Part shown: positions 16,778 through 51,300 of the stretch, piece by piece
How the letters are laid out: each line of letters begins with the position of its first letter
How positions within the stretch are numbered: position 1 is the first letter of the stretch
Origin: Amoebophrya sp. A120
Taxonomy: Eukaryota > Protista > Dinoflagellata
DNA length: 64,000 bases
Reading direction: 5' to 3'
Assembly: GCA_905178155.1 (NCBI GenBank)
Contig: CAJINV010000021.1
Location: 287,760-351,759, forward strand
Notes under the pieces: model-generated
What the model was told of the DNA's origin: nothing
The model's database searches: none
What the model saw: only the letters and a program-made list of their open reading frames with translations
Position numbers and translations under genes: made by a program

Positions 16778-19700
16778 ATGGTACAAAAATACTACCTCAA
16801 CTTCGAGAGCCAGCACTGGGTTTCCCGCGGGTGGCTTACGTTCAAAGCAGCTTTTTTTTCGGTGACGCTGCTGTTGCTTAGTAGTTGCAGCGTACTTGTT
16901 CGGGATGCCAGTGCAATAAAGTCCTCCGCGCGGCTGCGTACCAGCAGTGAGCCCGCAGCTTCTACTACCGCTCGCAGGGGGGGAGATGAGCATGAGGATG
17001 AACCGGTTTACCAATTTTTTCACACAGCACCAGGAGAGCCGATAGATGTACCAACGGTCGAGGAGCCGTCAACTTCGACACTGCGCTTGTTGCAACCTCC
17101 CCCGGCAGTTGTAGAGAACAATGCCGAGGACCAGCAGGAGCAGATGCCAACGCCCCGAGGACGTGAAGTGGGTGAACCTGGAGCGCGACGACGCTGGTCG
17201 TCCATGTCGCAATCTCCGGAACCGGTAGTTGCAGGTCCGCTGGAACAAGAACTACACCACCACACGCAAGAGACCACATCAAGAAGGCCACCTTCGCTGG
17301 GCCCATCTCCGGCGGAAAGCCCCGAAAGGTGGTTCGGCCCGGTGGACCTGGTGTGGTTGGGCCAGGAGCCGTCTCTAGCGCATGATACTACATCTGCTGG
17401 ACGAGGAGGACGAGGTTCGAGGAAGTTCATCAAAAATCGAGCACCCCCCTCCCGCGGGGTGGCGGGGGGGCGAGATGATTTGTCTGCGTTTCGGCTAGTA
17501 GCGGCCCGCCCCATTTCTGCAAGCCTTTCGGCCCGGACCAGCCGCGACTCCTTCCCGGGAGGGTAGAAAGGCCAAGCGCGCATCTGCCGCGCAAGTATTT
17601 CGCCTTTGGCGCAACTGGCTCGGGGGCTCGTTTACAAACAAGGCCGGCCAAACCTCTACAAAGGCGACAGGCGGCGCCCAGGGGCCCCCCTCCAGGGGGG
17701 TGCCTGAGGGGGGTACTTTTTTTGGATCCCGAAATCGGCCATTTTAGGTCGGGGGAAGGAACGCCAAGGGGGGTGCTTTTTGGGGGTGCTTTTTTTTGGG
17801 CAAAAGGGGGGGCCCTTGGATTGCCCCCGCGGCGCGACTTTCCAAGAGACGGCCATTGCTCATTGGATCCGGAAAGACCTGGCCGCAGAATGCTTAAAGT
17901 ATTGTCGTAGTGCTGCTCTGCGTGGTGACGGAAGACGAAGGCCGAAGCCGGCGGCGCTTCCGGTTGTGTGGGACCCACTGAGCAAAGCCGCCACATAGAT
18001 GAAGCCTACCCGAGCCAAACGCCTGTCCCGTGAGCCCACGGGAGGGGGGTGCTCGATTTTTGATGAACTTCCTCGATTTTCCTTGTCTAACTCTAGCGCA
18101 TGGTACTACATCAGCTGGACGAGGAGGACGAGGTTCTAGTAAAGCGACGAGTACTAGATCTTTTCTGAAGCTGGACGATAGACTCCGCTCTTCAGCACGA
18201 GATGAACCGGGGCGACAACAGGGGGGAGGGCACCATGGCTTCTCGTCTAGGCCTTCTACTAGTCGCGGGACGAGTACCCAGGGTGCTGATCATCACGACC
18301 AGTATGTTGGCGGGCAGATGGAGAAGCAGAGCCAGGATGCCGGAAAGACGTTCTTTTTCGGTAGTGGCACGCGGTTCACTGTTCCTGGAACTTCTTCACG
18401 TTCGCAACAGCAGCAGAAATTGCAAGGCGCCTATCATACGGACACGGCCCAACCACCCGTTCCCGTGGCGCCCGACGACCTGCATGGAGAGAGCCGTGCA
18501 GGTGTTGAGCTCCGCGAAGGTCGTGTGGGCTGGGATGCGGTCGAGAAATCGATAAATGCTTCCCCGTCCTCGGGAGGAGCTAGTACCTCACCATACGATC
18601 ATCATTACGAGCCATCTTCCAATGGCATGCACACCTCGCAGCACTCGTGGAACCCGAATGCGCCTGCCTTCAACTGTGCATATCATGATGACACGAGTGC
18701 CGCTGTTTCATCAGACCAACAACTTCGATACCAGCAGGAGCAGACGGCGCAGATAATGATGCAAATGCAATCCCAAGCCCAAGCGCAACAAGCGCAGATC
18801 TCGCAAGGGAACGGACCTTTGCACATGGGGATGGCCCTGCCTATGGCGATGCCAGTGCCTGCGCAAATGATGCAAATGAGCCCAGGAGTAGCTACACGAC
18901 CTAGCGCTGCTATGCCATGTATGATGAGCGGGCCCGCCCCGGTGCAGCAGATGATGGCTGCAGCTACTAATATTGCTGGAGGACCCACGATGCTGGGTAG
19001 TAGAAGCATAGCGCAACAACTGCAGCAAGAACTGCCCGCGCAACAACACCAACAACTGCAAGGAAACAGCCAAAATGGCAACTACGCTCCCCAGTTTCCC
19101 GCGATTGCCATTCACGGCAACATGGTGAAGTTGCCTGACGGCCGGAGCGCCCTCCTCATTCCGCTAGGCGGAAATGGTACAAACGCAACATCTACTTCTT
19201 CTACTCCCGGTGGTGCAGCTGTTGCTGGTGGTGGGCTAACGCTGAGTGGAACTGCTGGAATGAATCCGTCTACTTTATCGGGCGGAGTAATGCAGCTTGG
19301 TAATGGGGAACACGGTCCCGCTTCCGCCGCGTATCCAGCAGCTTTTGAAATGCAAAACGAGACTGTCAGAAATGTCGGCAAACTAAATCAGGGTAGTCTT
19401 GGTTTTCCAATGAATAAAGGTCAGCCCCAAGAAGAACACGCTGCTCTGCCCGCTTGGGGAGCGCAAGAACAGTTCAACACGGAACTGTTTCCATCTCCAA
19501 GCAACTACGCACATCAGCGGAGCCAGAGCCAGGCTGGAGCTCAAGACAATCACAACGTTGTTTTTGCGGCTGCACGAGAGGATGACGCTGAGCAGACCTT
19601 GAAAGAGAAACACGAGCGCTTCGTTGCCTACGGAAAGCAGATCCAGGACGAGTTGGAGTACATGCAGGGAATGCTGCTCAGCACAGCCGATAAAAACGTG

Positions 19701-25700: not shown

Positions 25701-28700
25701 TCTGGATTGTTCGAGGCGGCCAGCTCTGGAGAAGCTCCGCTAGCAGATAGCCAAGTAGACCCGTTTCCCGCTCGCTCCAAGCTGTTCCAAAAGGTCTTGA
25801 AAATGGAATCACGGCGGTCCTACCACGATTTGGCACTGGGCGCGCACGACAACGAGCGCGTGTACCACTCTGGGGTCGAAACAGAGGCCATGTTTCCGGG
25901 CCTGTGGGTCCCGCACTTGTCGCGGGGGATGCGTCTCAGCGATTACGCAGAAAATGAAGTAGATCTTGACGAACAAGCTAGCGCTAGGAAAATCAAGATG
26001 ACGGAAAAAGAGAAAGAGGAGTCTACCGCGGGGAAAAAGATGTTGCAACGGCGGCTGAAGATTCTCGAGCAGTTTCTTCGCGACTACCTATTGGAGAAAA
26101 TCTTCCGGGACGAGTCCACCTGGTTGGCGCCGCCCACCGAGGAGGAACGAAACGCAGCCCGTGTTGCCGACATTCGGACTCAGCACGACCTGCTCAGCGT
26201 CATCCAGCAGGACAGCTGGGCGGACGCGCAGAAGCGGCAAAGCCCACTAGCGAATCAAAATGGAGGGAAACAAGGCTCGGATCAGGGGGAAAAGCTACCT
26301 GTTGTGCAGAACACTGCCGTGCGGGACCTCATGGTAGAGTGGTTTCAGAAGGAGCAGAAGAAGCACGCCTCACCGGCGGATGCGCCGGCCGTGAAATTGT
26401 TTACCGTCATCAGCCGTGAAGTGATCAACTTCTTCAACATCAGTCCCGCGCTCCGGGACAAAATGTTCTTTGTGGACGGGGGCTTCCGGCCCTCGAAGAA
26501 CCTGTATCTGGTGCAGATACCGGCATTTCTATACACATCGAATCTCGAGGAGGAGGAAAAATGCACCAGCCCAAGTAACGTCTCGCAACCGAAAGAAGAA
26601 TCTTCGCCGATGGGTGCTGGAGAAGGTTCAATATCTACTCGTCCCTGCTCCAGAACGACGACGTCGCACGATCAAAGTGAAAAAGCTAGCACTTGTTCCT
26701 CGTCTAAAAAGGGGAAGAAACTTCTGAACAAAAAAGCTGAGAAGGTAAAGCAGATCAATTGCTCCCTCGAAGGGGATAAGCAAGGGACAAAACCGCTCTT
26801 GGAAGGAACTTACCCGCTCGACCTCGGCTACATGGCGATTACCGTGGATGACGGCCGGAGCTCGCAAGCCCTCATAGATTCTCCCGCGGCTTTGTTCATG
26901 GTCAATGGAGGTATAATCTTCAGATACGACTTGAATTATTCTCAAGAAGAGTCCTGCTCGAGCTTTTTGCCTCGAGGCAATTTTCCTTCGCGCATCTCAA
27001 AATAAAATCTGAAACTGAATATGACATAAATCCGAAGTAGACACTACGAAAATCATCAACCTAAGGTGGCATGCCAAACTTCTTGCACTGTGCGACCAAC
27101 GGTGGTATTGTCGTGGACATTTCGCAGACGGACTTTTTTGTGCCGACCGCGGCAAGCGTCGGTGGGGGAAGGGATCAGGAGGAAAGCAAGCCAGGCAAAA
27201 AGAAGGGAAAGAACAACAAGGCGGGTTCTTCTACTAAAGCTGGTGCATCAGCTCCGACATCAGCGGCTGCAACGACGCCGACTGTGGCTGCCGTGCAGTC
27301 GCTTCTCGCAAAAGTGGACAAGGATGTGAAGACTCATCCCGGTCCGCAAATGATGCTTCCCAGAATGACCATCGGGGACATGCCCAACACCCGTCTTTAC
27401 GACTTGGACGGAGTTCTGGCCGGCTACGGTTCAATGTACGACACTAGTTTGAAATCCAAATCATCAACTACAGCAAAAACTACTACTACTCCCCAACAAG
27501 GAACGAGAAAATCAAAATCATCTTCGGCGCAGCAAGGAACATCGCCGACTGCAGCCGAATCAGTTGCAGATGAGCACCTTGAAGATGCAACCTCCGACCA
27601 GAGCAAGCAGCGGAGAGCTTTTGTGGTCGAATTCCTCGATCCCAACGCCCCGGGCGCTTATCAAGGTGAGCTGGATGGTGACAGCACCGTGAGGTTGCCG
27701 TTGTCCTCTCCGGGAGGTCGCGGTGGAAATTCAAATTCAAACAGTGGCTCCGTTACTTATTTCCTCCCCCCCTCTATCACCGGGAGAGAGACGTTCACGA
27801 CGACGCGCCGCGTGATGGGGCGGGTCCGGCGCTGGGCGCTGAAGAAGTGGATGGGTGCCGGGGCGTCCCACGTGGACCATTTCCTCTTCAAGGATTGGGG
27901 GGCCAGCGAGGTGTGGAAGAATGGCGAAACGGCAATCACGTCGTTCTTGGAAGAGCTGGTGGCTTTGCAGCAGCAGTTAGTGGAGAAATCCTTGATGAGC
28001 ATCCTGCGCTACGTCGCAATCCACAATCACGCGCAGTCCGTGATATTTGGAGGCACGACGACAGTACAGCAAGGTCTACTTTCATCTGCAGGAGGCATCA
28101 AGGGCGGTTCAGCTAGCAAAGGTCGCGGTACTGCTAGGGCGAATAAGCGACAGCAAGGGCAAGGCTCTGGTGCAGCAGCTGCAGCAGGCTTGTGTACCGT
28201 CACGGAGCTGGTTCCTCACCCGAATAGCGTCGAGCAGGCGCTCTTCGGAGGTGCAACTTCCAGTGCTTTCTCTTCGGGGGTACTCACTCCCAGCTCGGAA
28301 AGCGTTGCCTCGTGGTGGACCGAGATAATGTTCAATCCGGACGCTGCCGCGCAGACGGCGCCGACCCACCCGAGTGAGAAAAACGGGACCCAAACGTGCA
28401 ACGCCAAGGAAATCGACTACAGCAACGCAACCTCATTGGGAACTACCACTACGAAGAACAAATTGCAGCTCCTTCAACCAGAATCCGTGGGGGAGTTCGC
28501 AAGCGTCAGGGCACTGCCACCAATGGTTAGTACAACAGGACAGACGAACAGCAAAAAGACCCATGTGGACGAAGCGGCAAGGCAGAAGGAAAACGAAGAA
28601 CTGGCAGAAAGAATTAATGAAAATGTGAAGAACTCCGAGCGGCTGCAAAATTCCTTCGACACCCGACCCGTGAACCGCGCGTTCGTGCACATGCGACTGC

Positions 28701-31700
28701 ATTTGCTGAACAAAATGGTCGCTTCGGTGCGAGAGCTGCACCAGCAGGTGCTGCAGCGGGTCATTCTCGTGGACGCAAAGGCCCTCGCGATTGCCAGCGT
28801 AGGGTCGGAGCAGGACTACAGCTTGGACAGCCAAGCCGGACTGGAGCAAGCGCTACAACGGTTGTCCCAGACCAGCAGTCTGGGCGCCGTGCCGAGGCAC
28901 TTGGACTACAAAAAGCTGCCGGTGGAAAGGCCGTTTTTGAACCTGATTCTCCGTCTGTGGCAGCAGACCGAGGTGTCGACCAGTATTGTATCTTCCACCA
29001 GCGGAGGTGGTCCTCGTGGTGCTGCCGCTGGTGGTGCAAGAACACAACTAAAGCAGTCCTCGAACCTTGCGGCCTTGTTTCCGAGCGAAAACTCGCACTA
29101 CCAGCTATATTTGCCCTTTGCGAAGAATAAATCTGTTAAGACGAGCATGAAGGAGAACACGACAGAGCCGCGGCTTCTCACTGCCAGGGCGCCCTTCACC
29201 CACCCGGCGGTACGGAACGTGCCTAGCCTGCAAAAAAACTTTGTGTTTTTGTCGCAGCTGCGCGCCTTCATCGCCCGTTTGGATGTGGGGGCGGACCTGA
29301 TTGACCGCCTGGCGCACAGAGCGAACGGCGCAGCGTCCAGAGTCGTCGACCTGTCTTCTCTGTCGCGTGTTGACCAGCTCCCAGCTGGAACTACTGTCTC
29401 TGCAAAATCATCATCTGCGACGTCACTGAAGTTGCCGACGGTCGGAATCGGAAATACGGCAGCCAACGAAGTTGTACCAGATCCAGACCCAACATCCGCG
29501 GCGTCCGAAATGGGCAAGCAAAGGCTCGCGGAACACTTTCGCTCCACCCCACTGGCGGCTGCGCAACGCAAGGCCCTGCGGACGCTGATCGATATTCCGG
29601 ACGATGACAATTTCGAGGTAAGCTGGCTCACTTGCTGGACCAAGCTGGACGATTTCATGCGCCAACACGCACCTCCACCAACTGCACCTCCTCCAGTCGT
29701 CGGGTCGCCTAATTTTTCCCAAACAACTTCTGGGCGTCAGCAAAAAACGCCACAGCAGGAAGATCTACTCCAGGAGGACGGCGGCGGTGACACTGTAATG
29801 GGAGACGAGAGCAACATCAAGGGCCCTTCTGGATCTGCAGGAGCCGCTGGTACAACAACAGCCACGAGCGCCGTCGACGCGCAGGCCGCAGCGGTTTTCG
29901 GTACGTCAGCAGCGGCGTGGATGGAAAAGGAAAGCTTTTCCGTGAAACTTCGGCGCAAGCGGGATCAGGAGGTGACCACCTTTCTCTCCGAGTGGCGCTT
30001 GTCCGCGAACACGGCCTCGTTTTTGCTTCATTCCTTGGGGCAAGAGAATTCGGCCGAATTCCTTAGTCGCCACGGCCCGGCGATAAAGGAGCAGATGTCA
30101 GATGTGGCTGCGAAACTGGATTTGGACCATGGTGCAGGAGGGCAGCAGCAGCAGCAGACCACAGATGGAGTCGGAGGTGCGAGCTCTCCAGCTCCGCCCC
30201 CTGTTTACCACAATACCTTGCTGCAGACCATTGCTCCGCTCTTTTACAGAGATTATATTTCCGCGGAGGTTGCGGTGCGCACCTTCAGCCGCAAACACGC
30301 CCCGGACCCGAAAAACTGCACTCCGAAGACCGCAGCGGAAAATTTTTCCAGCGTGTCCAGATGCACCCAGACCATGTTGCAAAATTTGTCACCCGAAAAA
30401 GCCGCGGAGTTTGGAGCGTTACTGTCCAGGTTACGGGGCTTGGGAAGTATGATGCAAGCGTTGTGGGAGGGTCTGCAAACCGTGTACCTGATGGGAGACA
30501 AGTTGCTCCGAAGGAAATCCTTTCTGACTTTCGACGTGTTGCGTCTCGCCCTATCCAGGAAAAAACACCCATCCCCATCCATTTTTTGCATGGCAAATAG
30601 TGGACTTTATGCATGTTTTGCATGACAATTGACAAATTGGATGGGGATGGGTGTTTTTCCTGGATACGCCCGACTCGGCGTCTACTGGGCGTTTGAAAGT
30701 AAAAGCGGCGACGAGAAAGACCAAGAGCTACTCAAAGCCGGCGTTTTGAGGAACGTAGGGTTCACCATTTTCCCGCCCGGTACGCCCCCGTACGCCATCG
30801 AGGTGTTAGATCTTTTGACCCGCGCAACTGGTGCGGCTGCGGAGAGGATTAGGATGGAAAAAAGGAAGAACAATAAAGTAGCAACGAGAACTTCTGAGGG
30901 AACTGGAACAACTACATGCGGTCGCGCCGCCCCTGCTGCTGCTCGTCCGAAGCTGGACACGACTAGCATGAGTGGAAACAAGAATTCTGACGACATGGAG
31001 ATCGAGCGAGAGCCTGTGGAAAGAAAGATTTCCAACGACAGTGAAGGTAGTAGTCGTGCTTCTACCGTCGGAACGGCAGTATCTTCCCCTTCCTGCGGCT
31101 CATCATTATCCTCTCCTGCTAGCACGACCCGGAAACCCCCCATTGTGCAGCGCACGCGCGTGAGCGTGAAGCTGGCGAGCGGCATCAAGGTCGAGGCTTT
31201 TTTAGTGAAGCACGACCTGATTGAGGGGCGCGCGGAGCTGAAGCTTTTTCCAAAGAAGCCCGATGTGCCGGACCGGCTTCACGCGGACATTCGCGATGTC
31301 GACGCGCCGGTGCCGAGCGAAGTCTTCGCGGAAGTAACAGCCACAGTAAACGGGTTTGACGATCTTGGCGACGGCCACAAGATGCAGACCGACGCGAAAA
31401 CCGGAAAACCGATGATAATGGTCGACTCGTCGGCGGTGCGGATCGAGGATATGCCTTACAAAAGCATCGTACTACTGTAAATTGCATTACAAATTGCCTT
31501 AGCATTACAAATAAGATTTTTAAGATTTGTAATGCGGATTTGCTGCATTTGCCTTAGAGGAAAAAGTAAAAGTTGTAATGCATTTACTGCAATTACTACG
31601 AGTGCGATCGCGATGCTTCTGCACTGCATCGAGGGCAGCTTGCTGCAACGGAAGCCGGTGGAGATAAAGAAGGACGGGACGGCACCGCGCTGGGTCTGCA

Positions 31701-32939
31701 CCATTCGAGTGACCAAGTCGGAGAATGCGAGAAAAATCGCGATTGGCAAGCTGTTGCAACTTCCCGAGGAGCGACTAGCCATCGTGCGCATGCCGCCGGG
31801 GGAAACCACAATTGGGAGAATCTACGCGGCCAGCATGGTGTCGAACAAAGTCACGGCGGACGCCGCGGAAAGCAGGAGCCCGGTCGTGAGGAAAGGAGAC
31901 CAGGGCGAGGCAGATTCGTGCTCGCCTGGGCGATCCCCGACGGGGGCCTCCGCGGATCTGGGTACTACGGATGTAGCAACTGAGGAGCAGACGGAACGCG
32001 AGCACGAACAACAGCAAGAGCAAACCCTATTTCCACCAAGACCGGTGTACACAATCGCGGGTCCTTTGCTGCCAAACGTAGCAGAGACGATGCTGCGCAC
32101 TTCAAGAGGTCCTGCCGGGCTGAGCCAGGCAAAGGGAAAGGCGTCGGCGGCGTCTTCAGGTGCTCGTTTGCAGGAGCCGGAGGGAGGACAAGAAGATGAA
32201 TCGCAGCAACACGACGACCCGTCAAGAACTACGTGCACGACGCAGATCCCAGGACTGTCGTCTACTCCCATGTCCTCTCGAGACGATGATGCGAAAAATG
32301 CTGTGTACCGCATTCTCCGTCCCGAATTCGCCGCGATTCGCAAAGGGGCGACGACGATGAACGAAGTACCAGCTGCAACTCCGGACGGCATGCTCAGCCT
32401 GTTTACAATCTTGCTGAACATGAAAAGCATGTACCAGCAGGACGACCAACACCGGAATAAAGGGAGAGCGAAGGCAAGCAAGTTGTCCTCTTCGGCCAGT
32501 GCACGATACGCTACGGAACTCGGTAAGAGTACACCTTTGATGGCATAGTGATCTGCTTCAGTAGCTTTTACGCAGCCTTCTGTTTTTTTTTTTCAGTATC
32601 AGTTTTAGTCCTGCTATGCATATGCTTTTTGTCTTTTGATTTCAACCAGGTTGATACAAGTTGAACGACAACAGAACGCGTCGAAAAAGAATTAAGTGAG
32701 AATCATCTTCAACAACTACAGGCGAAGTCTTCCACGATGTGAGCCTCCATGCTTTGAACGCCCGGAATGAAATTATGGAAGAGGTGCTCAAGACGTCTTC
32801 ATCACGCGGGAGTGCTGGAGGAGGCTCGCTACGGGGACTGCAGATTCTCAAATGGGTTGTGCAAATCGCGGTAGACCTGGTCGCGGATACGGTTCAGGAA
32901 GACCAGTTTGAGAGCCAGCTGCTGGCGATACCGATTTAG
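16778..32939 (+). CDS. Giant (~4,900 aa) low-complexity hypothetical protein with an N-terminal signal/TM segment
   Basis: ORFs 16778, 18030, 27071, 30629, 31532 and 32739 join in frame after removing the element at 17417-18076, GT-AG introns 26911-27065 and 32523-32721, and introners 30552-30666 and 31457-31623. No domain recognised. Confidence 0.7.
17417..18076. mobile_element. GC-rich TIR element in an exon, followed by a 46-bp duplication of upstream exon sequence
   Basis: ~38-bp TIR tcgaggaagttcatcaaaaatcgagcacccccctcccg. 17373-17418 is repeated at 18091-18136 with 2 mismatches, after 14 nt of filler. Confidence 0.88.
30552..30666. mobile_element. Minimal introner-like intron (115 bp, TAT...ATA class)
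   Basis: TIR tatccaggaaaaaacacccatccccatcca / tggatggggatgggtgtttttcctggata and perfect 5-bp direct repeat cgccc. Excision gives VLRLA|RLGVYW. Confidence 0.92.
31457..31623. mobile_element. Introner-like intron, TIR family C (tgcaaaagYatcg)
   Basis: tacaaaagcatcg ... cgatgcttctgca, related to the copies at 50043 and 63101. Removing element plus 1 nt joins IEDMP|CIEGSLL. Confidence 0.8.
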
Positions 32940-34807: not shown

Positions 34808-37800
34808 ATGGGCAACAAGAAGATCATGCTGTCGCAACCGAGCAAGCTTCTGCGTTTGTGCGCTGCGGCCGCAGCTGCGCAGCTGACGGCTCTCCACAGC
34901 AAATGCGGTGTAATCAGGTCGTCTATCACTATCCTCGTCGAAGCAGCCGCGCCGCTCGGCCCCGGTCGTACTAGTCGAGAATCACGTCGAAATAGGGCTA
35001 ACGATCGAAATCCGTCGAAATACAAGCAAGAGCAGCCTGAAACTACAAGACAAAATAGCGGAGGGAATGTGAGTGATCCTAACCGCCCTCGCACTTCTGC
35101 GCGGAGCCACCAGACGAGCAACGCTTCAATGATTGGCACCGCCGCTCCAATTCCACGACCTGAGCCGCTGCGTGGTCAGCCAGCAGCGGCTCGAGCGTGG
35201 TTTGAGGTTCCCGCTCCATCCTTTGGAGGTTCATCTTCATCCTCGGCCCCGTACAATCCGACTCTGACTCCAGTACAACAGATACAACCGCCATGGCCGA
35301 CGATGGACTACAACAGTGTGCAAGTTGTACTGCAGCAGCAGCAGCTGTATGCGCGAGTACTAGGGCAGCAACAGCAAGCTTATGCTCACCACCAGATGCA
35401 GATGGCGAGCAACATGAGGCAGCCGCAGCATGAGATGCAGATGGCGAGCAACATGAGGCAGCCGCAGCAACAGCAAGAGCAAACGGCTCGACCACCATTG
35501 GGAGAGTGGCTGCACCAGGGGCCACTCTGGCCTTCCACTACTAGTACTGTGGGACCTCAAGCAAGTGGAGGAGTAGATGTTGCAAGTAGGCCAGGGGAAG
35601 AACTAGAACGACAGAAACATCAACAGGCGCACGATCTTCTCATGGCAGGAGCTACAAGAAAGGCAATAATTCAGTTTCGGAAACAAAACAGCATGCCGTC
35701 CGCCTCAGCGTCAGACGACCGCAGGAGCACGACCACTACTCGAGGCACAAGCGAAACAAGTAAGCAACGAAGCGGAAGCAGCAAGCACAAGCAGCACCAA
35801 CAAGCTCCCGTAACAACTGGGACTGCTTCTTCGCCTGGGTCGACACCTCAAGCGTCGTCGTACATCAGGAGCAATTCCGCGTCTCCCAACAGCGACGATG
35901 TGTCCATGTTTGGAGAGACAACTGAAGACAATTCTTCGCGACCTTCCGCGTCGTCAGCGCCGACGAGTTTTACTCAAAAACAAAAACAAAAAGCCTCGGA
36001 AACAAGTACATGGGTTCCCGCTTACGAAGCCTGGGCCGGGTGGGAACCAAAGTTCCTGGTGTCTCCTCAGTTCTTATCAAAGGAAGAGGTGTCTTAACGT
36101 GAAAAACAAAACAGTTTATTTAATACAATTCAGGTACCATGGCTGCACCAGTCATGCGTGGATTTTCAATTTTCTCTATCGTGGATGGAGCTATGCGATA
36201 CGAATACTTACAAAGTCGAATAATTTGCTGCGCGCCATTTGTTCGTGTCATGCATTTAGAATTACTGCATGAAGAGATGTTGAGATTGGGCAACATGCCT
36301 ATGCCACAAAACTCTTTTCAATAAAACGTCAAGACACTTTTTTCTGTGATAGTTGTTCACCGGCGAGATCGCGATGAAGATTGCCCCGAACGACGACAAC
36401 TACGAGAGAGAGAAACAGCAGGAGAAAGATCATCTGGGCGTGCAAAGGGCGTTGCAGAAGCACGCCGAGGACAATGTCCAGGGCACTGCTCGGCGACACG
36501 GCGTGACTGGTCCGCGGCGGGAGCTACAGCAAGTCACGTGGCAACTCGACTGGGAGGACGATCGAAATGTGCGGGATAGGAGCACCTCCGCCGTGATTAA
36601 TTTGCTGGACCGATTATTGGCCCACAAGCGACGCATCACCAAATCGGCGGAAGTCACCAGCCTGATGCTCGATTTGATTCCCGAAAGCCTGCCTACGAAG
36701 TTTGGCACCGACCACATGATGTTATGCATTGCAAATATGTCTGGGTCTGGAAACTTGTAATGCTAAAAGTGAATGAGAGCTCTACTGCAATACGTAGCCA
36801 AGCATGACAAATTTTTGGGCTCCTTTGTGTTGCGTGTTCCGGATGGCAAACTGCGTTTTTGCATGACAGTTAAGAAGACCGCTTCCTGCCCATGCATCAC
36901 AGATTCTTGAGTCATGTCAGACATGCATGACACGTTAGCAATCTTCCAGACCCAGACATTTTTGCATTCCATAGATGTACGATCTAGACGACTTGGGATA
37001 CTACGGCCTCTACGACTTCTATGGATCTGTCAGGATTGAAATCGTCAAAGTTGAGATGATTTGTCATGCATAAAATGCAACCCTCAAAATGCCTGTCTTG
37101 CAGACTAGGCAAGGGAGGCAGATTGTAAGCCTGTTGCGGGGTAGAAATAGAGCTGCTAAAGTAGCATGACAAAAGGCTTCTTCCTTACCCAAACAGCATT
37201 ACAAGCTGGATTTCGGATCTACCCAAATTTGTCATGCGCCGCTTGAAAATTGGTCTTCCAACTGGTATCCATTTTATGCATGACAAATCATTTCAACTTT
37301 GTCGATTTCAAACCTGACGCTTCCATAACTTCCTTCACGTGAAAGAGCAGATCCATAGTAAAAACTACCAGCAGCTTTGTAAAAAGTCGGGGGCGCAGCA
37401 TGAACATGAAAAAAACCAGCCCCCGCACGCTAAAACCTACGCCTTCGTCAACTTCATCAACGAGGACCATATCGAACAAAAATCTGTTATCGTTATCGGA
37501 TTGGAAATTGCTGGCAAAGGCCAAATTTTTTTTAAGTTTAGCTACTGACTTAGCTACCTCAAGAACTAGCTATGATTTTGAACTAGTTGTGTGCATTTGG
37601 CCAAGCGCCGCGCCGAAGCCTGGATCATGTCGAGCCCATTCTGCCGGACCGTTTCGAGCTGCGCGCCAACCCTCCCAGGTGGATGCGATTTGCTCAGCTT
37701 CCGGCAGTGCAAGTTGGAAGCTTGTTTTGGGCTCATAAAGATCAATTTGTAATGCGGACCTGCGTCACAGACGCGTCACGTTTTTGACATGGAAAAAGTG

Positions 37801-40800
37801 CTGCCGTGCCCACTGCATCACACAGGTAGATGCCCAGAAATGAGATTTTTTGGGGTGCTCTGGTTGCCGCCCAGTCGTTGATGATGAAATCTGCCCACCA
37901 TCTCGCGGCCACCATCGTCACCGGGGTCTGACCTGAGAAATTACGGGAAATAGGATGGCACGCGGACTATAAAAGTGACCAAAAAGTGTCGTAGTCGTTG
38001 TTATCGGTTTCGGCCAGGGCCTCGGAAATCTGGCCAATTTGACCAGCAAAAGTGGCCATTTTTCCGAAGCCTCCGGGCAAACCGATAACAAGCACCCTTT
38101 TTGGTCACTTTTATAGTCCGCGTGCCCTCGTGCTACGTGTCTGTTATCGGTTTCGGCTTGACCACCCCACCGTGATAAAAATCTGTTATCGGTTGCGCTT
38201 TTGGCATCGCGCCAAATCCAACTTTCGCAAAGTAGACCCATAAACTTGAGCTAGCCACGACCTGAGTCGGACTATAAAAGTGGCCAAAAATGGTGCTTGT
38301 TATCGGTTTGGCCTTCTGAACCGATAGCAGACACCTAAGCACGGTGGCACGCGGACTATAAAAGTGCCCAAAAATGGTGCTTGTTATCGGTTCTGCCGGA
38401 GGTCCGGCAAAACGAGGGCACTTTCCCCCCCCAGAAAGGAGGTCCGGAGGGCCTCCGGACAACAAGCATCCCCCTTGCCCAAAAAAAAACCCAAAGAAAC
38501 TAGGAAACAGGGACGCCCACAGCTCTCCAAGCACTCCAAAAAGGAGTCCTTGTCAGCGCGCCGCTTCGCCAGCTTGGCGAGCGGATCGCCCTCGTCGATC
38601 TGCTTCTTCTTTGCCATGTCGATCAGCTCGTTCTTACACCCAAACCACCCCCCCTCGCACTGACAGCAGACGCGTCGCCGCCTATCAGCTTCCGGACATG
38701 CTTTGCAAGCACTCGCAGCCACACTGTTTTGTTGGCGCAGTTGGCAAGACAATATCCAGATCGGACGCGGAGTCTGGCCTGGGGTGACTGCGCGACACCG
38801 AACCGGAACACCACCGCCTCGAGATCCGCCGCGTCAAGTCTGCCGTCTGCTGCCCCAGAAGGATGACCAAATGCACACAACGAAATCAAAATAATCATGA
38901 CCGAAGATAGCTACCTCACTATCTAATTTTGAAAAAATTCTCGCTTTCGTTTCAAATTCTTAATTCGATAACGATAACAGATTTTTGCTCGATAAACCAG
39001 CCCCCGCACGCTAAAACCTACGCCTTCGTCAACTTCATCAACGAGGACGTCGCCCGCATCTTTTCAAATTTTGATAAGTGGCTGCCCACTTTCCAAATTT
39101 TGAAAAGATGCTGAAGGAAACATCTTTTCAAAATTCGACAACCCGAACAGCGCAAATATCAAATTTTGAAAAGATGCTCTTTCTGCATCTTTTCAAATTT
39201 TGATTGATAGGTGGCTGCTCACTCTCCAAATTTTGAAAAGATGCTGAAGGAGACATCTTTTCAAAATTTGACAACCTCAACAACGCAAGCACTTGCTTTG
39301 TTGAGGTTGTCAAATTTTGAAAAGATGTTTCCTTCAGCATCTTTTCAAAATTTGACAACCTTTTTGACAACCCCTTTGATGAGGTCTCCCAAGAGGCTAT
39401 TAACTTAACCTAATCCGCATGGTATGGTGGATTTTGATGAACCTGTTTGGGAACCTCTTTGGTGCGCCTAGACAGAGAATTGTTGACGAAAGTCCAAGGC
39501 TTTGGCTTGCGCTCCAGCTGGCGGGTCGCCAGATGGTAAGCAAAGCCGTGCCTCTGGCGACATTTGTTTGCTTGCCTCTTTTGTGGCTCCGAAGATTGCG
39601 AAGATGCCCCCTCAGCAAGTTTGCGAATTTTGAAAGCCACGCAGAAGAGTAGGCTGCTCACCCTTTCCGCGGCTGTCGAAATTTGAAAAGATGCGCTGGT
39701 AGTATCTTTTCAAATTTTGGAAGCCACAGAAGACTGAGCTGACCTCCCTTTGCGTGGTTTCTCAAATTTGAAAAGATGGTCCTTCTGCATCTTTTCAAAT
39801 CCTGAAAACCACAGCACAGCCAGCTGCTCTCCTCGTCTGCGGCATGTAAAATTTGAAAAGATGCTCCTTCAGCATCTTTTCGAATCTTGGCAACCTCAGG
39901 ACAGAAAACGGATCGGCTCTTCTGCGGCTTCGAAGATTGAAAAGATGCTCCTTTAGCATCTTTGCAAATTTTGAAAACCACAGACGCGTAAGCCGACCCC
40001 GTCTTCTGCGGCTTCAAAAATTGAAAAGATGCTCCTTCAGCATCTTTTCAAAGTTTGAAAAGCACAGAAGAGCAGGCGACCCTCCTGTTTTGCGCCTTTT
40101 GAAATTCGAAAAGATGTTCCTTCAGCATCTTTTCAAATCCTGGAAACCACAGAAGAGTAAACTGCTCGGGTCTCTTGTGGCTTCGTTATGGAAAAGATGC
40201 TCCTTCAGCATCTTTTCAAATTTTGCAGGCCAAAGGCCACGCGCTTCAGATTTGAAAAAATGCTGAAAGGGCATCTTTTCAAATCTCAAGAACCACAGGA
40301 GAGCACAGCAACTTTTTCGCCTGTTGGTTTTCAGATTTGAAAAGATGCGCCCCGAGGTATATTTCCCCGCTTCAGCCGTGTCCACATTTGAAAAGGTTGC
40401 GCCATGAAGCACGAGCCACCTCGTCAGGGGTTGCTCGCTCCTCAGGTCTCCCAGATCTCTCGACCCCTTTGGCTTCTCGGACAGCTGTGGTCTGTGCGCG
40501 CCTCCCTATTCTACCTAGACCTCCCATTCCAGTTGGCTTTTCCGGGTTTCCCAGCCTACGCCGCCTGTCCTCATTTTACTGGGCGCGCGCCAAGTCCTGA
40601 ACCGCTAGGGGTTTGGGAAGCTGCGCAGAAGATGCGGCGGGCGTTGTTTCCGAATCAGGCCCAAGCCAGGCCGGGGCAGATAAGAGGGGAGGCGCAGCCT
40701 TTCGCTCGGCTGCGCTTTGTCGAGGGTAAATTGGCCGGGGGCATTTTCCGCGTTTGTCGCTATTGCCGGGTGCCTTTCCTTACCTGCGCAAGCAGAGGCG

Positions 40801-43800
40801 CGCTCAGGGCCCATGGCCTCATATGATTGGGAGGCTCGTTTGGGTGGCTTTTCTCTTTGGGGTGTTTGGCTTGCGTTTCTGCCCCGGGCCTCGGGGCAGA
40901 AATAGGGCAGCCCGGCTTGACGCGTTTGCAAAGGCGGACGCGCAGCCGCCATCGAAGAGGCGCTACCCGATAATCGGCGAGGGCGCCGAGCAATCAACTG
41001 GCCAAAATTTGAAAAGATGGGCGAAAAGGTGGAAATTTTAGGGCCTTCATAAAACCTACGCCTTCGTCAACTTCATCAACGAGGACGTCGCCCGCTCGTT
41101 TTTGCTGCGCGCCGCCAAGGGCGAGCTGGCGGCGAAAACCTTCCGCCGGGTGAAAATTGCGGCCAAGCAGGGGTTCGCGCGACAGCTGCAGAACTGGGTG
41201 AATCTAGATACAGAAAAGGATACGGGAAAATTGAAAACCTACGAGGACGACCAAGGGAAGGTCAGGACACGGACCACGGGCAGACAAGTGGCCGGTTCGC
41301 AGAGTATAAGTTGTGTAGTTGTTGTGTTGTTGACCACTGAATTTCTTAATGATTGAAGATAAAGTTATGCTCTTGAAGATATTTTTGTCTACGAGTACGA
41401 CCTCCATCGATCTCCAACTCCAAGTTCAAGAAGTGTCTGTTCTTTCCACTGCAACTTTGTGATATTCGGCGGCGATCGTAGGTTTGTGGATCGTTAACAT
41501 CTACGAAATGAAGATTTTTGAAAGGATAAGGAGTGGCAGAAGATCGCATCATCTTCACCGGCAAAGCACGAAGATTCTCGTCGCGCTACTCTAACTCTTC
41601 ACCTTTACAACCTGCAAGTAGTCCTCTATTGCATGCGTATTTGTAAAATGAAAAAAACTATACAGTTCTTGGAATTTCCCGCACGGCGCGCATCCACAAT
41701 AGCCACTTCGTACCCTTGATTTTCAAGCGGTCTCCACAGAGCGAGCCGGCAATGGCCTCGCAGGTGTCGTCGAGGATGCCTTCTAGTACGGACGCCGGAA
41801 TATTAAATCAAGGTGAACATCAAGGTCCTGCTCTGCGCATGCGCACCCCCTACGTGAGCCACGCGTTCCGATTGACCCCTGATTTTCCGAAAAACTTGCT
41901 GGCAGTGGCGCTGGACGTGGAAGGGCCGTACTTGCGCGAGCACGACGTGCGAAAGAACCGCGTCCCGGTTTATCGTGCGGAAAAATCCCCCCTCCCCATA
42001 TTGAGAAGGTATATTTTCGAAAATTTGCGTTGCTGATTTGAGGTCGCAAATCACACTTGTCTTGCAAGAAGAGAAGGGCAGAAGCTGCCGCCCCATTATG
42101 GAAGCGGCTTGCCATGCTGTTGGGCCTAAAGGGCAGCCGTTTGCCATGCTGAACAACTAGACCCATACGCCCCACCTAGCCTGGGGCTCTGGCCGCAGTG
42201 TCTCTCTGGAATACAAAGCTGATTTGTGTACACAAGTCCAGCATCAGAAATTCCTTTTTGATATGGGGAGGGGGGATCTTTCCTCACAATACGGTTCCGG
42301 ACGGGTACAGTTCGCGGGCGTGGCGCAGCCTCGGCTGGATCGTAGAGCAGTGGTATTACAATGAAAAATGCCCCCACCCCCAAACTTGAAAGCATTTGTA
42401 TTGCAAACCTTTCCAAATGAAACATTCGCCCTCTTGCATGTATCAGTACACAGATTTCCGATCGTGAATAGCAAAAATTTGTATTGCAAAAGATCCCAGC
42501 AAGAGCGGTGCTTGTCATGTAAGCGATGCGAAACACGACTACAATCTGCATCAGAAAGATTCATACTCCTTTCATGCATGACAAAAAGTTTTCATTTGGA
42601 AACTTCGCATCACAAATTTTTGCAACTTTGGGGTGGGGGGCACTTTTCACTGTAATAAGTGGCGCCGCGGGTGGGTGTACGCGGACGAGCGGCAGAGGTC
42701 GTTGTGCGCTGAGTACCGACTGAGCCCCTTCGCCTATCTTGCGTGGAAACGCCTCCGGGCCACGCGAGGGATGTACCACGTGCCGTTTCTGCCACTGTTG
42801 CCGGATGTTCTGCCGCAGCCTCACGGCACGACTGGTGAAGAAGATGAACAACGTCAGGGTCGTGATGCTTTCTCGTCGAGTGCTGTGCACTTTGTCAGCA
42901 AGGGCGTGCGATTTACAGAGGAAACCGCAACGGCCTTGTTAACCGCCCTCGTGAAGCCAGAGAACCTCGCAAAAGTCCGATTTCCCTTCCCGAAGCAGGC
43001 CAACAGAAACCTGTGGCAGAGGATTCAAGCCGGAGAAGACGGGAAGAGCGCACTTTCAGGTACGGAGTGTATTAGGATCTACAACAGTACTTGCTATGTA
43101 TAAAGTAGAATGATAAATTGGATTTTTACTCTCGGTTGTTGATAAGGTTGAGATGCAGGTCATTTTTCATCCTGTAATAGTGAATGACGGCATCCAATAC
43201 AAATTCTAATTCTCATCTTCTTCTTCCTTCAAGTTGTACATAGATGATCATGATGTGTTTCTCTACTTAGCGTTAGCAATCTTTCAAGCCGTGCAACCTT
43301 TTCCTTCAGGTGTTAATTGTACTCCTGAAGACCACGAGCAACAAGATGCAAATGCGGCTAGACCAAGAAGTAGACCATTGGAGCAGCAGCCGCAGCCTGA
43401 ATTCAAGCCGTTTGAACCGAGCGAGACATACAAGAAGTTTTTGGCGCAACACGGGCATCATGATGCAGCAACCGGCTACGCACCTGTCCTGGATGCTATG
43501 ATGAAGGACACAGTCTTTTTGGAGTCAATGAATCGCACCGTTGGGGCGGAAGCATCCTGGTTTCGAGAATTCTGCAGCCAACAAGGGCAAGAACCAGCTG
43601 CGTCTTCTGAAAGAACAAGAAAAAGTGGCACAACATCCAGAAATTCGGCCGGACGATCTTCTGGGTCTGGCGCAGCACCACGTATGCCTGCTGCATCCGC
43701 CAGCTCCGCCTCGGCCGCGGCCGCACCACAATCGAAAAAAGCCCCTAGAAATTATGCCACCGCTGCATCAGCACATGGTGCGTGTGGACCAGACGCGAAG

Positions 43801-45003
43801 GAAAAGAACGAAAATACGCGCCACAAAAGTAGCGGGACGGGCAAGGACGCGGCCACTGCGAGCAGTAGTAGAACTGCGGGTGTTGAAAATAAAAGTCGTA
43901 AGCCGATGTTGAACAGGAACCTGGAACACAAGAACAGTGCTGCTGTTGATCGTCAGCAGGACGGGAAGCAGGGACGATCACAACCCTCCACTGAAGATGT
44001 GCCGACGTACGTTGAAGGCTGGGACCACGTGGCCGCCCCTTTTCCCTCCGATGGAAAGGTGCATAATTTGCCACGGCGCGGCAGCTCCGACTCCATGGCG
44101 AGCACCAACACCGGCGGACTAGCGTCGATTGTCACTACGCCCGTACTCGGGCCAGCTGCTCCAGGTACGTGGTAGAGTTATTTTAATTTCAATTGGAAAT
44201 GGAAAGTACAATTAAGTACAACTAGCACTAGTACTAGTAGCTTCAATGACTTGTTTTCCCCATCGATCGTCCCCGTTGTTCATTATATGCATTTGGTTTA
44301 TTCCGTTTCCGTCGAAATAGAGTTGCTTCGTGTCTGTCCTCTAATCCCCAATAAGTGTTGTAGTTGAGTTGTTGAGGGCGTGCACTAATTAATACCTTAA
44401 AAAATTTTTTTCTTTTCAGGGAGCGGAAGAAGGGATCTGGATCATGCGACAGGGAACACGAGCACGAGCGACTCGTCTAGTGATACAGAAACTGCTTCTG
44501 AACAAGTAGATGGCCAGTTGGAGCACATCGAAATCCCGCAGCAGCACGAGTTGTACGTCGACCAACGGCTCAACAGCCAAGGTCGAGGTGAACGTGAACA
44601 ACGAACCGGCACCGCAACTAGCGAAGTTGCTTCCGGTAGAGGGTCCGAGCGACCAACAGCCGCCGATGTGCTGCCGTGTCTTGGACGACAACCACTCGCC
44701 CAACGGAGTTTTACCTACCCCTGTGGTGGAGCAAGTTCCGCACCTGCTGCAGAAGGTCAACGTGGAGAGGGATCCCCGAGGATGAGGACGACGAGCAACG
44801 ATGAAGAACTGAAGCAGCGGGACGACAAAGAACCGCAACACGAACACCAGGAGGAGCATAGTGGGATCATGAGCCCACAGGCGTTCGTGAGAAACACTTT
44901 CCTAACCGTTGGAAATCCACACGCAGCAACACCGCTGGCCGCAACAAGTGCGAGAAGGGGCGCGGGAAACCGCTCGGCCACGGTACCACCGCACGGACCA
45001 TAA
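34808..45003 (+). CDS. Mei2-like RRM-domain RNA-binding protein, heavily interrupted
   Basis: Reconstructed RRM: VTSLMLDLIP...MM|YDLDDLGYYGLYDF|LHV...TYAFVNFINEDVA...VKIAAKQG, resembling Mei2 RRM3 (TTxMxxNIP, YDFxY, YAFxNF, AxxQG). C-terminal VRNTFL motif. GT-AG introns 36089-36352, ~43060-43309 and ~44165-44419, another near 41261-41739, plus six TIR elements. Confidence 0.72.
35394..35469 (+). repeat. Exonic tandem duplication, period 39 bp (MQMASNMRQPQ x2)
   Basis: Two identical 37-nt copies of agatgcagatggcgagcaacatgaggcagccgcagca. Confidence 0.9.
36723..36973. mobile_element. Introner-like intron, TIR family A
   Basis: TIR tatgcattgcaaatatgtctgggtctggaa / ttccagacccagacatttttgcattccata and perfect direct repeat gatgt. 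Frame restored. Confidence 0.9.
37020..37327. mobile_element. Introner-like intron (TAT...ATA class, distinct TIR)
   Basis: TIR tatggatctgtcaggattgaaatcg / cgatttcaaacctgacgcttccata and perfect direct repeat acttc. Joins YDF|LHVK. Confidence 0.9.
37470..38994. mobile_element. 1.5-kb TIR element (TAT...ATA ends) flanked by a 54-bp exon duplication
   Basis: TIR tatcgaacaaaaatctgttatcgttatcg / cgataacgataacagatttttgctcgata. 37414-37467 is identical to 38995-39048. Internal direct and inverted repeats cggactataaaagtg-ccaaaaa and tgttatcggtt at ~37960-38395. Confidence 0.9.
39057..40400. repeat. Array of palindromic units TTTGAAAAGATG-N(~8)-CATCTTTTCAAA
   Basis: About a dozen units. Seven are regularly spaced at 39685, 39770, 39855, 39939, 40023, 40108 and 40191 (83-85 bp period). 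Confidence 0.9.
39057..41019. mobile_element. 2-kb TIR/foldback-like element followed by a 46-bp exon duplication
   Basis: TIR catcttttcaaattttg / caaaatttgaaaagatg. 39012-39057 is identical to 41050-41095, after 30 nt of filler. Confidence 0.85.
41971..42291. mobile_element. Introner-like intron, TIR family B, opposite orientation to 6012-7568
   Basis: Family B TIR and perfect direct repeat cggtt. Interior 41971-42125 is the reverse-complement homologue of ~7415-7568. Joins NRVPV|PDGYS. Confidence 0.9.
42354..42657. mobile_element. Introner-like intron (TAT...ATA class, distinct TIR)
   Basis: TIR tattacaatgaaaaatgcccccacccc / ggggtggggggcacttttcactgtaata and perfect direct repeat agtgg. 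Joins EQW|RRGW. Confidence 0.9.
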
Positions 45004-48354: not shown

Positions 48355-51300
48355 ATGCGGTCGCGGCGTCCTTCGATGGCTCTATTGGTAGCTCTTGCTC
48401 TACCTCTCTGTCGTCATTTTTTGGTCCAGTCCGTGAGTGCCGAAATCTTCACTGGCACTGTCCGTTCGTCCACGGAGTGGCCTGTGGTGGTTGCGAAGTT
48501 TGTGTACGACTACAATCCCGCTTGTTTTCCCCCGTCGTTCTGCCGCCCAGACCAATACCCGGGGGAACTGGACTTAACATACGAAGTGACCACCATCGCT
48601 GATGACGGAACAACAGCTGGAAGCTCCTCCGGGGGAGATGCAGCAGCTTCGGCGTTTGGTTCCACGACAAATGGGAATGGGGCAAACAGCGAGGCAGCTT
48701 CATCCGCCAACACTCTACATTCCTCCCAGTCCACGCTAGCTCGGTATGCGGGCCGGAACGCGAAACAGGAGGACACGCAATTTTATTTCGGGTTGCTGGA
48801 TGATGAAATCGCCCAGTTTCCGCGCCTGTTCCCGGCCGGTACGGTGTCCTTTCTCGGAAGCCCCACACAATCCGCGTACGAGACCTGCGATCAGGCTATT
48901 CTTTGAAAATTTACCATGATGCATCTTTCCGTCCATTTTTTGCGAGACCGAATACAGAATCTAGATCTGCGTTCACATGTTTTGCATGACAAAAATTGGA
49001 TCATGCTGGGGATCATGGTCAAGTTTCAAAGAATACAGCTGTTCAACAACGTCGCCGGCAATTGGCTCCGACTGGAGCAAGGCGACGGCGAGATGGTCAA
49101 AGTGACGGATGACGGGGACATGGGTGCAGCCGCCGTTCCGGCTGGTGCTGCCGGAATGAATATGAATAACATACTGCTTCGGGGCGGGAGCCCAGCAATC
49201 TCAAGCGCTTCATCGAAACTTCCTTCCACCGGTTCTACTCCAACAGCGTCGCAAAACCCCTTCGCGGCTTGGTTTGGCGGTGGGCAAAGTGGTGGACCCA
49301 CGTCCGCGGAGATTGCGGGGAAGTGCACCGCCACGTGGTCCGTGGCGTTTGCAAATCAGTACCTTCTCGGCTGCGTTCCGAACGACAATTGCAAACCCTG
49401 GAGCACGATGGAAGCCGCGAAGCGTGCGTGCATCGCCCAGGGCCCGAACTGCGGCGGGATCGTGGGGGCACCGACTGCCGATACTGCAAGCGGGGGGAGC
49501 AACAGTAATATTGACGCCGGGCAGCAGGCAGCCGCTCCCGCGAATACTAACTTGCAGTGTCGCGCGTTCAGCCACGCTGTAAACCACTGGGAGATCCGGG
49601 AGGGGAGGGAGGTGCTTTACGCAAAGGACCAGAACGATTTGGCCGCCCGGGAATCGAAGGAAATCGCGTACAAGAAGACCAGCACAAACAGCAACACCGC
49701 GATCACCTTCGCGCCCGGGGAGCCCTGCGCGTGGCTGGCCAACTGCGTCGCGGGCGACGAGTGCAAGAAGTACTACCAGCGAAGTGACGCCGAGCGAGCC
49801 TGCATCGCCGCGGGGGAGACCTGCGGCGGGATCGTGTCCCGCCCCTGCGGCGGGGACAGCCGAATCGCGTGCGACGAAGAGTCGGCCGGGCGGCTGGGCT
49901 CCTCCTCGCCGATCCATCCGGAAAACATCCACCACTGGGAGATTCGAAGGGGCGCCAGCCCGATGGGCCACACGCAGGAGGTGAGCTACCTGAAGCACAT
50001 GTCCCTGGACTGCGACGTGGTGCCAGCAACCGGAATATCCTGTGCAAAAGTATCGTACTCGTACTAATTGCAGATATGCATCACAAATCCAACTTTCTAC
50101 CTGAAATAGCATGACAAATTGAATTTTTTTCTTGGAAAAATTTGTAATGCATTTTAATGATACGAATACTATACGGTACTTTTGCAATGCATACGGAAGC
50201 TCAGAAACCGTGGACGGCGACGGGGACGCCGCGGTGGCGACACTTCAGCTAGGCGACGCCAGTACAACGAATAATTCTAAAACCCCCTTCGTCTACCTGA
50301 AGGGGCGGCATCGGCAATCCATCCTGCAGAAGTGCAGGCGTCGCGTTTGGCACTTCTTGTTTCTCGCCTGCAGCGACCGACCAGCCGCGGGAGGTGATAC
50401 AACTTTTTCGACGATCACCGGGCAGCCGCTGTACGAATTCAAGTACACGATACGGGCTCGAAATACGCTCAATGGCTGGGAAACCGAACTGGGCGCCGAC
50501 GAAAACCAGCTGTTTCCTATTTTGCTCTTTCAAATTTTCTTCCTCGGCACGTTATCTTGGCAATTACGACCCAAGATGTTCTCGATCTCGACGGCATCAT
50601 CAAATGTTGGAGGTTCTACATCGCCTTTCGAAAGAGACCTCAACTACGCGTTTGCCGGGGAGTTTTTCGGCCCGCGCGCGATCCGGGGGAAATTCTCCCT
50701 CACCGGATTGGTCCAGCACGGGACGTTCATTCTTTTCGCCGCAGCGGTCGTGCGTGCGGTGGATTACCCTCTGAAAGCGTTTTCCGGGCAGCATTTCGCT
50801 TTTTTCGGCTTTGTTGACTTCACAACCATCGCAAGTCTGGTCGAGGCGGCGGGGAAAGCCTGTCTAAACCTGATCTTCCTCTTCTGCGCCAGCCAGTCCC
50901 CCAGCCAAATCAGAAGGTCCGCGGCACGGTTCGTTTCCCAAATGCGGAAATCGAGCAATTTAGTGGACGGTAGTACGTCTGCGTATGCAGGAGGAATATC
51001 CCTTATTTCTACGTCCAACTCTGCCACCAGTTACTACATCCGCAACCTGGCCGTGCTTTTTTTCATTTGCAACGTCATCTTAGACCAGTGGTCGCGCGCT
51101 CGGCACCTGAAAACACTGACCACCGTGTACCAGTACGACACGGCCCCGGGGGAGATCGTGGTTTTGCTGGATGTGGCGATGTTGGTTCTCGTTTGTTTCC
51201 TTCTATTCCGTTCCTTCTACGGTGACCCAAGGTATCGGTCCAGATTGTTCTTTCTGCGGTACGGCGGCCTGTTTCTGTTCTGGTTCGCAACTTTGCCCGC

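What the first reader, a model, noticed from the sequence alone, without database searches (positions are those of the whole stretch)
37414..41095. Two stacked TIR elements each followed by a ~50-bp copy of the exon they interrupt (RNP1 motif present three times)
Seen: the RRM core coding sequence (KTYAFVNFINED) occurs three times, at ~37414-37467, 38995-39057 and 41050-41095. The copies are separated by two unrelated TIR elements of 1.5 and 2.0 kb, and the duplications are perfect 54 and 46 bp. Established: DDE transposases make target duplications of roughly 2-11 bp. Inference: these elements insert by a route that re-synthesises ~50 bp of upstream target, so an intact exon piece lies downstream and the insertion can be spliced or recombined out without loss. 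An in-frame AG sits in the filler at 41040-41041 (ttttag|ggc ctt cat aaa acc). This may be an undescribed self-rescuing insertion or intron-birth mechanism.
Basis: partly seen in the sequence, partly recalled or inferred. Interest (0 to 1): 0.88.

Follow-up and report, generated by a model that had tools for sequence, protein, structure and literature searches.

The report
Introners with rebuilt, exon-copying ends
Two transposon-derived introns in a gene of a parasitic dinoflagellate each have a normal end and an odd end carrying a 44-54-base copy of the exon they interrupt, likely left by DNA repair rather than by a special insertion route, and the messenger RNA keeps two of the three copies, so the protein is predicted to carry a 17-residue repeat.

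Summary
The triplication is real: two DNA runs show three entries into the repeat, each at single-copy depth. The elements are Amoebophrya-type TAT...ATA introners, whose normal target repeat is 5 bp (216 of 349 pairs exact). Both have a canonical 3' end followed by a 5-bp target. The 5' end is odd: 54 nt (E1) or 44 nt (E2) of downstream exon sits before the element, joined by 2-8 nt of microhomology; E2's 5' arm lacks 27 nt, E1 keeps ACCA of its old target repeat. A third case, E3 (17373-18136), has the same anatomy. RNA contigs and the annotated protein keep two copies: E1 is spliced at its arms, leaving an in-frame 17-residue duplication; E2 leaves with one copy. Best reading (inferred): normally inserted introners whose 5' junction was rebuilt by templated repair; rivals are one-ended integration and mRNA-templated repair. 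A dedicated long-duplication route is not supported. New variant of a known kind, useful as a natural test of how these introns are spliced. E2's 5' junction was not seen directly in reads.

The parts
34808..45000 (+). Host gene, 11 exons, 1424-aa annotated protein P0001 with a likely Mei2-type RRM; 7 of 10 introns are TAT...ATA type
   Evidence: RRM below cut-off
37414..37467 (+). Copy 1 (54 nt), starts at the 5-bp target AACCA; inferred to be the added copy
   Evidence: transcribed (RNA contigs)
37466..37469 (+). ACCA: AC microhomology plus CA, four of the five bases of E1's target repeat; splice register of E1
   Evidence: sequence; registers 37466-37470 give the RNA junction
37470..38994 (.). 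E1, 1525-bp TAT...ATA element, both arms intact (28 of the first 29 nt complementary, pairing to about 134 nt); multi-copy; no Pfam family above cut-off in two ORFs tested
38995..39057 (+). Copy 2 (63 nt): E1's target AACCA, 14 nt, E2's target AAACC (39014-39018), then 39 nt of downstream exon
39050..39057 (+). Microhomology join into E2's truncated 5' arm (TCGCCC, 6 nt; 8 with GC)
   Evidence: junction not bridged by any contig
39058..41051 (.). E2, about 2.0 kb, internal 85-bp palindromic tandem repeats, 3' arm intact to ATA (41049-41051), 5' arm lacks outer 27 nt; the AG at 41040-41041 lies in the 3' arm
41052..41095 (+). Copy 3 (44 nt) starting at the 5-bp target AAACC; continues into the downstream exon to 41302
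17373..18136 (+). E3, third case: 46-nt copies at 17373-17418 and 18091-18136 (2 mismatches), TIR element ending in TAA at 18088-18090, 5' arm lacks outer 14 nt, joined at TC; the copy holds AG|GT, so a GT-AG register exists
   Evidence: no read or RNA test
36723..37327 (.). Two control introners (36723-36973, 37020-37327) with exact 5-bp repeats, spliced out in RNA run X4

Best explanation
E1 and E2 are Amoebophrya-type TIR introners with a canonical 3' end and 5-bp target, and their 5' junction was likely rebuilt by templated DNA repair after, or while finishing, a normal two-ended insertion. Inferred steps: a break or stalled strand at the 5' junction left an upstream end finishing in the target repeat; it re-primed on the other copy of that repeat across the looped-out element, copied 39-49 nt of downstream exon, and returned to the element through 2-8 nt of microhomology, losing 0-27 nt of the arm. 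Shown: E1, with both arms, is spliced at its arms and leaves a 51-nt in-frame duplication in the RNA. Shown only by the absence of any other contig and by the annotated protein: E2 leaves together with one copy. Its register inside the 46-nt repeat cannot be told, because every register gives the same mRNA.
For: Each duplication starts exactly at the base after the terminal ATA or TAA (3 of 3). E1 keeps ACCA of its target repeat on the 5' side, as expected if a normal repeat came first. Microhomology at all three joins (AC; TCGCCC; TC) and truncated arms in 2 of 3. The family norm is 5 bp: 216 exact and 38 with one mismatch of 349 pairs. Four 35-63-nt near-perfect repeats flank inserts without TIRs in a relative, which points to a general pathway. 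Closely linked repair duplications with 2-9-nt microhomology are known in vertebrates (PMC2671141, abstract and section 7). RNA back-jump 39046 to 38996 at depth 18.4 against 14.3 upstream; protein P0001 has the 17 residues twice.
Against: Two rare events 19 bp apart in one gene is a coincidence that the model does not explain. All three cases have the same polarity to transcription, which a DNA-only model does not predict (two of the three share a locus, so this is weak). No empty or unrepaired allele was seen. The 95 of 349 pairs with two or more mismatches were not checked by hand. No TIR-type case was found in about 449 kb from a relative, though short-read contigs may break at long multi-copy elements. 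E2's 5' junction was not bridged by a contig.
Confidence: 0.5

Rival explanations
1. One-ended integration: the transposase joined only the 3' end; host enzymes extended the free target strand by 44-54 nt and joined it to the other, often truncated end.
For: Same anatomy as aberrant proviruses: one normal end, the other often truncated, host duplication larger than 5 bp (PMC5041404, passages). Single-ended events are reported for piggyBac and Mos1 (PMC3952818, passages). One A120 introner family has TIRs with LTR-type ORFs (PMC12130899, passages). Fits E2 and E3 as well as the best model.
Against: E1's 5' side matches its target repeat at four of five bases, which this model must take as chance (my estimate: about 1 in 16 to 1 in 256). 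Proviral duplications were usually hundreds to thousands of bp, against 44-54 here.
Confidence: 0.2
2. Aborted intron loss: the element's 5' broken end primed on the spliced mRNA or its cDNA, copied back across the splice junction and was rejoined upstream.
For: Predicts the polarity seen in 3 of 3 cases; copy 1 crosses both insertion sites in the empty form; one template could serve both neighbouring events. Retroposition of mRNA in dinoflagellates is recalled, not tested here.
Against: Only two independent loci; no RT or cDNA evidence; the DNA of the far flank gives the same letters; polarity of the four cases in the relative could not be read.
Confidence: 0.15
3. One reading: these element families insert by a route that always makes about 50-bp duplications (like IS1549/IS1634), as built-in self-rescue.
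For: Three long elements (0.7-2.0 kb) in one window, lengths 44, 46, 54; flanks of other E1/E2 copies were not measurable; bacterial precedent of 8-514 bp repeats.
Against: Three unrelated elements; truncated arms with microhomology; E1's duplication is not removed from the RNA; termini are those of a class with 5-bp repeats (PMC7789003 section 11); long repeats also occur without TIRs.
Confidence: 0.07
4. Part of the structure (E2's 5' junction, or the order of E1 and E2) is an assembly or gap-filling error.
For: No contig of X1, X2 or X4 bridges 39057/39058; a published assembly of this organism used short-read scaffolds with gap closing.
Against: All three paths run through 39012-39048 at additive depth; E1's 3' junction continues as exon to 39023, so no canonical E2 start follows there; E3's copies differ at 2 positions, which a gap filler would not give.
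Confidence: 0.08

Closest known systems
Non-canonical introner elements of Amoebophrya sp. A120/A25 (Farhat et al. 2021, PMC7789003; abstract, sections 10, 11, 16, 23, passages and supplement passages seen)
   Same: TAT start of the inverted repeat followed by an A-run, direct repeat at the boundary, no GT-AG, spliced from mRNA; E3's end resembles the TTA + two purines motif given for A25.
   Different: Published repeats are 3-5 nt (surveyed 3-8 nt, supplement legends); here 44-54 nt on one side, with truncated 5' arms, and the elements are 0.7-2.0 kb (analysed introns were 40-1000 bp).
Aberrant one-ended retroviral integration (PMC5041404, passages seen)
   Same: One normal end, other end often truncated, host sequence duplicated beyond 5 bp.
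   Different: Non-autonomous TIR elements inside exons; short, similar lengths; E1 keeps part of a normal target repeat; products are spliced and fixed.
Repair-mediated duplications (Pace et al. 2009, PMC2671141; abstract, section 7 seen)
   Same: Nearby donor within 5 kb, 2-9 nt microhomology, small deletion.
   Different: Here the donor begins exactly at the far target repeat of a transposon.
IS1549 / IS1634 long variable direct repeats (PMC2266710, passage seen)
   Same: DDE elements flanked by long repeats (8-514 bp).
   Different: Bacterial, a property of those elements; here a minority class with damaged ends.
Intron gain by tandem duplication of AGGT (PMC3443670, passages seen)
   Same: A duplicated exon piece offers donor and acceptor in register (GT-AG in E3, GA-AG in E2).
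   Different: Use of these registers is untested; E1 offers the same GA-AG register yet its RNA contig shows splicing at the arms.

Membership tests
Amoebophrya A120-type introner element | Inverted repeat of 8-20 nt or more beginning with TAT at both ends | tested here: met
   E1 37470-38994. E2 has only the 3' terminus, see next row
Amoebophrya A120-type introner element | Both termini present (E2) | tested here: not met
   5' arm lacks outer 27 nt; filed as a damaged member by its 3' end
Amoebophrya A120-type introner element | 3-5-nt direct repeat at the boundaries | tested here: inconclusive
   E1 GACCA/AACCA (four of five); E2 AAACC is present 39 nt upstream of the physical 5' edge; both embedded in longer duplications
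Amoebophrya A120-type introner element | Repeated in the genome | tested here: met
   Depth 130-300 over E1 and 285-1090 over E2 against about 48 single copy in X1; another E1-type end with a different flank
Amoebophrya A120-type introner element | Removed from mRNA without GT-AG | tested here: met
   E1: RNA junction contig, no GT-AG register. E2: inferred from RNA contigs and P0001; no GT-AG register among 47, one GA-AG
Long-target-duplication transposon (IS1634-like behaviour) | Most copies of the element make long repeats with both ends intact | tested here: inconclusive
   Other E1/E2 copies not available (no genome; no E1, E2 or E3 hit in 163 loci); class norm 5 bp; ends damaged in 2 of 3
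One-ended integration product | One canonical end, other joined by host repair with larger duplication | tested here: met
   Anatomy met in 3 of 3; cause not testable
One-ended integration product | No earlier two-ended state | not testable with these tools
   Needs sister alleles; ACCA at E1 argues against
Mei2-type RRM (PF04059) | Score above Pfam cut-off | tested here: not met
   15 bits against 25; none for whole P0001; Atlas 0.88 with 10 of 10 best hits in one family or clan

The most novel reading that the evidence does not exclude
These are frozen, half-finished intron losses: spliced mRNA serves as repair template at broken introner 5' ends, always placing 40-55 nt of downstream exon in front of the element. 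This recurs across the genome, builds short in-frame protein repeats when the hairpin survives (E1) and turns into repeat-bounded introns when it does not (E2, E3), showing that Amoebophrya picks splice sites by the hairpin.
Probability: 0.15. Interest if true: 0.82.

Novelty: new variant of a known kind. Interest (0 to 1): 0.52.

Why it matters
How Amoebophrya removes its non-canonical introns is unknown (U1 not found, PMC7789003). These loci separate hairpin, direct repeat and splice dinucleotide: E1 has a 54-nt repeat and a GA-AG register that would restore the gene, yet the RNA contig shows splicing at the arms; E2 has lost the end of an arm and leaves with one copy. A genome-wide set of such elements would map what the machinery reads. 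They also show a route by which introners add short repeats to proteins, and their polarity is a simple test for RNA-templated repair.

Tried and rejected
No whole genome is held, and the records behind the metagenome loci could not be opened further, so flanks of other E1/E2 copies were not tabulated. No listed holder is on record as RNA; X4 is taken as RNA from its spliced joints. The first lay was swamped by high-copy short introners. No orthologue of P0001 beyond itself, so the single-copy ancestral state is inferred, not seen. No annotated protein was found for the E3 gene, so its splice outcome is open. No solved-structure match. No transposase-like family above cut-off in four ORFs of E1/E2; the Atlas look-up for one of them gave no answer. 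The 44-nt repeat at 49421/49793 is read as an internal protein repeat (82%, no TIR). 6012-7568 has a 5-bp repeat but is a short introner with a nested insert, so it is no control for long elements. Heterozygous bubble rejected: each path is at single-copy depth. Literature: five searches on Amoebophrya introners, aberrant integration, intron gain and single-ended transposition plus searches listed no paper describing this anatomy in Amoebophrya; most hits were seen as listings only, and subscription papers and the figures of the supplement were not seen. One recalled paper on raltegravir was not held. Look-ups of earlier findings by place and sequence were empty.
Full report
Observation. The protein encoded around them is identical to P0001, which its source labels Amoebophrya sp. 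A120. The window holds many TAT...ATA inverted-repeat elements; of 16 pairs with at least 16 of 20 complementary bases, 8 have an exact 5-bp direct repeat and 3 have one mismatch. This matches the introner elements described for that organism: inverted repeat starting with TAT, direct repeats of 3-5 nt (PMC7789003 section 11). Seven of the ten introns of the host gene are of this type.

Anatomy. E1 runs from 37470 to 38994 with both arms intact. It is followed by AACCA and preceded by GACCA. E2 ends in ATA at 41049-41051 and is followed by AAACC. Its 5' arm pairs with the 3' arm only from 39050, so the outer 27 nt are missing and the join has 6 nt of microhomology, 8 if GC is counted. The duplications are therefore 54 and 44 nt, and each begins at the first base after the terminal ATA. 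The simplest reading is that the 3' junctions are the original ones and that the extra copy is the one on the 5' side. The AG at 41040-41041 is part of E2's 3' arm. A third element in the window, E3, has the same build: 46-nt copies at 17373 and 18091 with two mismatches, a 3' end in TAA, a 5' arm short by 14 nt and a TC join. Leaving out E3 with one copy gives a frame open for 223 codons upstream and 2963 downstream.

Is it an artefact? In one search, DNA run X1 (13 contigs laid, 8 listed) shows the E1 3' junction at depth 39.4 and the two-copy segment at 74.7; subtraction gives 46.9 for the upstream entry and 40.4 for a third entry starting at 39012. In X2 (16 laid, 8 listed) the three entries are 17.2, 25.1 and 17.4, and the three-copy core has 57.9. 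So three paths enter the repeat, each at single-copy depth. X1 and X2 are one sample. An exit after 39048 at about 16.7 in X2 is the E1 5' junction. No contig bridges E2's 5' junction; X1 also lacks the E1 exit, so such edges are dropped, but this junction and the order of the two elements rest on the assembly.

What the RNA keeps. Run X4 is RNA by its spliced joints. All 6 of its contigs on the stretch are listed and account for the depth table. One 58-nt contig reads 39019-39046 and then 38996-39025: a 51-nt back-jump at depth 18.4 against 14.3 upstream. This is E1 removed in the ACCA register, with both copies kept in frame. P0001 agrees: QPPHAKTYAFVNFINED occurs twice; that gene model may rest on the same RNA data. 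Run X10 laid no reads. All 47 registers for removing E2 with one copy give the same mRNA; one is GA-AG and none is GT-AG. E1 offers the same GA-AG register across its own duplication, yet the contig shows splicing at the arms. E3 has a GT-AG register; its RNA was not tested.

How common is it? A pattern for one short introner family found 167 stretches in metagenome contigs, stored as 163 loci, about 449 kb without overlaps. Across these and the window, 349 TAT...ATA pairs gave 216 exact 5-bp repeats, 38 with one mismatch and 95 with more, the last not checked by hand and partly false pairings. Among the 288 with 90-nt flanks only E1 has a long duplication. A search for 25-150-nt direct repeats in unique sequence left 20 rows; three had inverted arms inside, all in the window (E1, E2, E3). 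Four rows in the loci are 35-63-nt repeats of 97.5-100% identity around 0.8-1.7-kb inserts without TIRs (L030, L034, L058, L068); ten were tandem or diverged repeats. E1, E2 and E3 had no hit in these loci, and the loci were picked by a short family in short-read contigs, so long elements may be under-counted.

Mechanism (inferred). I favour repair at the 5' junction of a normally inserted element (0.5): the upstream end, finishing in the target repeat, primes on the far copy of that repeat, copies 39-49 nt of exon and returns by microhomology. E1's retained ACCA is the main reason. Repair duplications with such signatures are known (PMC2671141). One-ended integration gives the same picture for E2 and E3 (PMC5041404; PMC3952818; 0.2). 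An mRNA or cDNA template would explain the shared polarity and the two events 19 bp apart (0.15), but there are only two independent loci. A dedicated long-duplication route has a bacterial precedent (PMC2266710) but fits poorly (0.07). A partial assembly error remains possible (0.08).

Comparison and verdict. The elements work like, and E1 is, an Amoebophrya introner; E2 and E3 are damaged ones. The published survey covered repeats of 3-8 nt and introns of 40-1000 bp, so this class would have been missed; my searches listed no paper describing it. Each ingredient is known elsewhere, so it is a new variant of a known kind. Its value is as a natural experiment on an unsolved splicing mechanism and as a visible route to short protein repeats. 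The RRM identity is likely but under the Pfam cut-off; whether the doubled motif alters the fold was not tested.

Noticed in passing
window 17373-18136: Third TIR element with a 46-nt exon duplication and a truncated 5' arm; its terminus resembles the TTA motif reported for strain A25 rather than TAT.
   Followed up: yes
window 6012-7568: A short TAT...ATA introner (relative of 41971-42291) with a nested 1.2-kb TTA...TAA element (6057-7282) flanked by an 8-bp repeat.
   Followed up: partly
window 36723-36973 and 37020-37327: Summed contig depth of up to 3e5 and 1e5 against about 48 single copy in X1: very large introner families; the first family also occurs in metagenome contigs.
   Followed up: partly
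L058:1823-3609: 63-nt repeat around a 1.7-kb insert whose minus-strand ORF looks GIY-YIG-like by eye (recalled motif; no Pfam hit); possibly a truncated Penelope-like element.
   Followed up: partly
L030:832-1865, L034:6725-7616, L068:437-1912: 35-49-nt near-perfect repeats around inserts without TIRs; the L068 insert itself holds two ordinary introners with 5-bp repeats.
   Followed up: partly
window 41303-41667: Intron of the host gene without TAT...ATA arms, supported by an RNA contig joint; boundaries not worked out.
   Followed up: no
window 5690-5951, 36075-36351, 48897-49035: Introners whose 5-bp repeats differ at one or two positions; useful for placing the true splice register.
   Followed up: no
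window 16727-32548: Very long gene (about 4900 codons by my sum of ORFs) with few introns; no homologue found for residues 30-400 of its largest ORF.
   Followed up: partly
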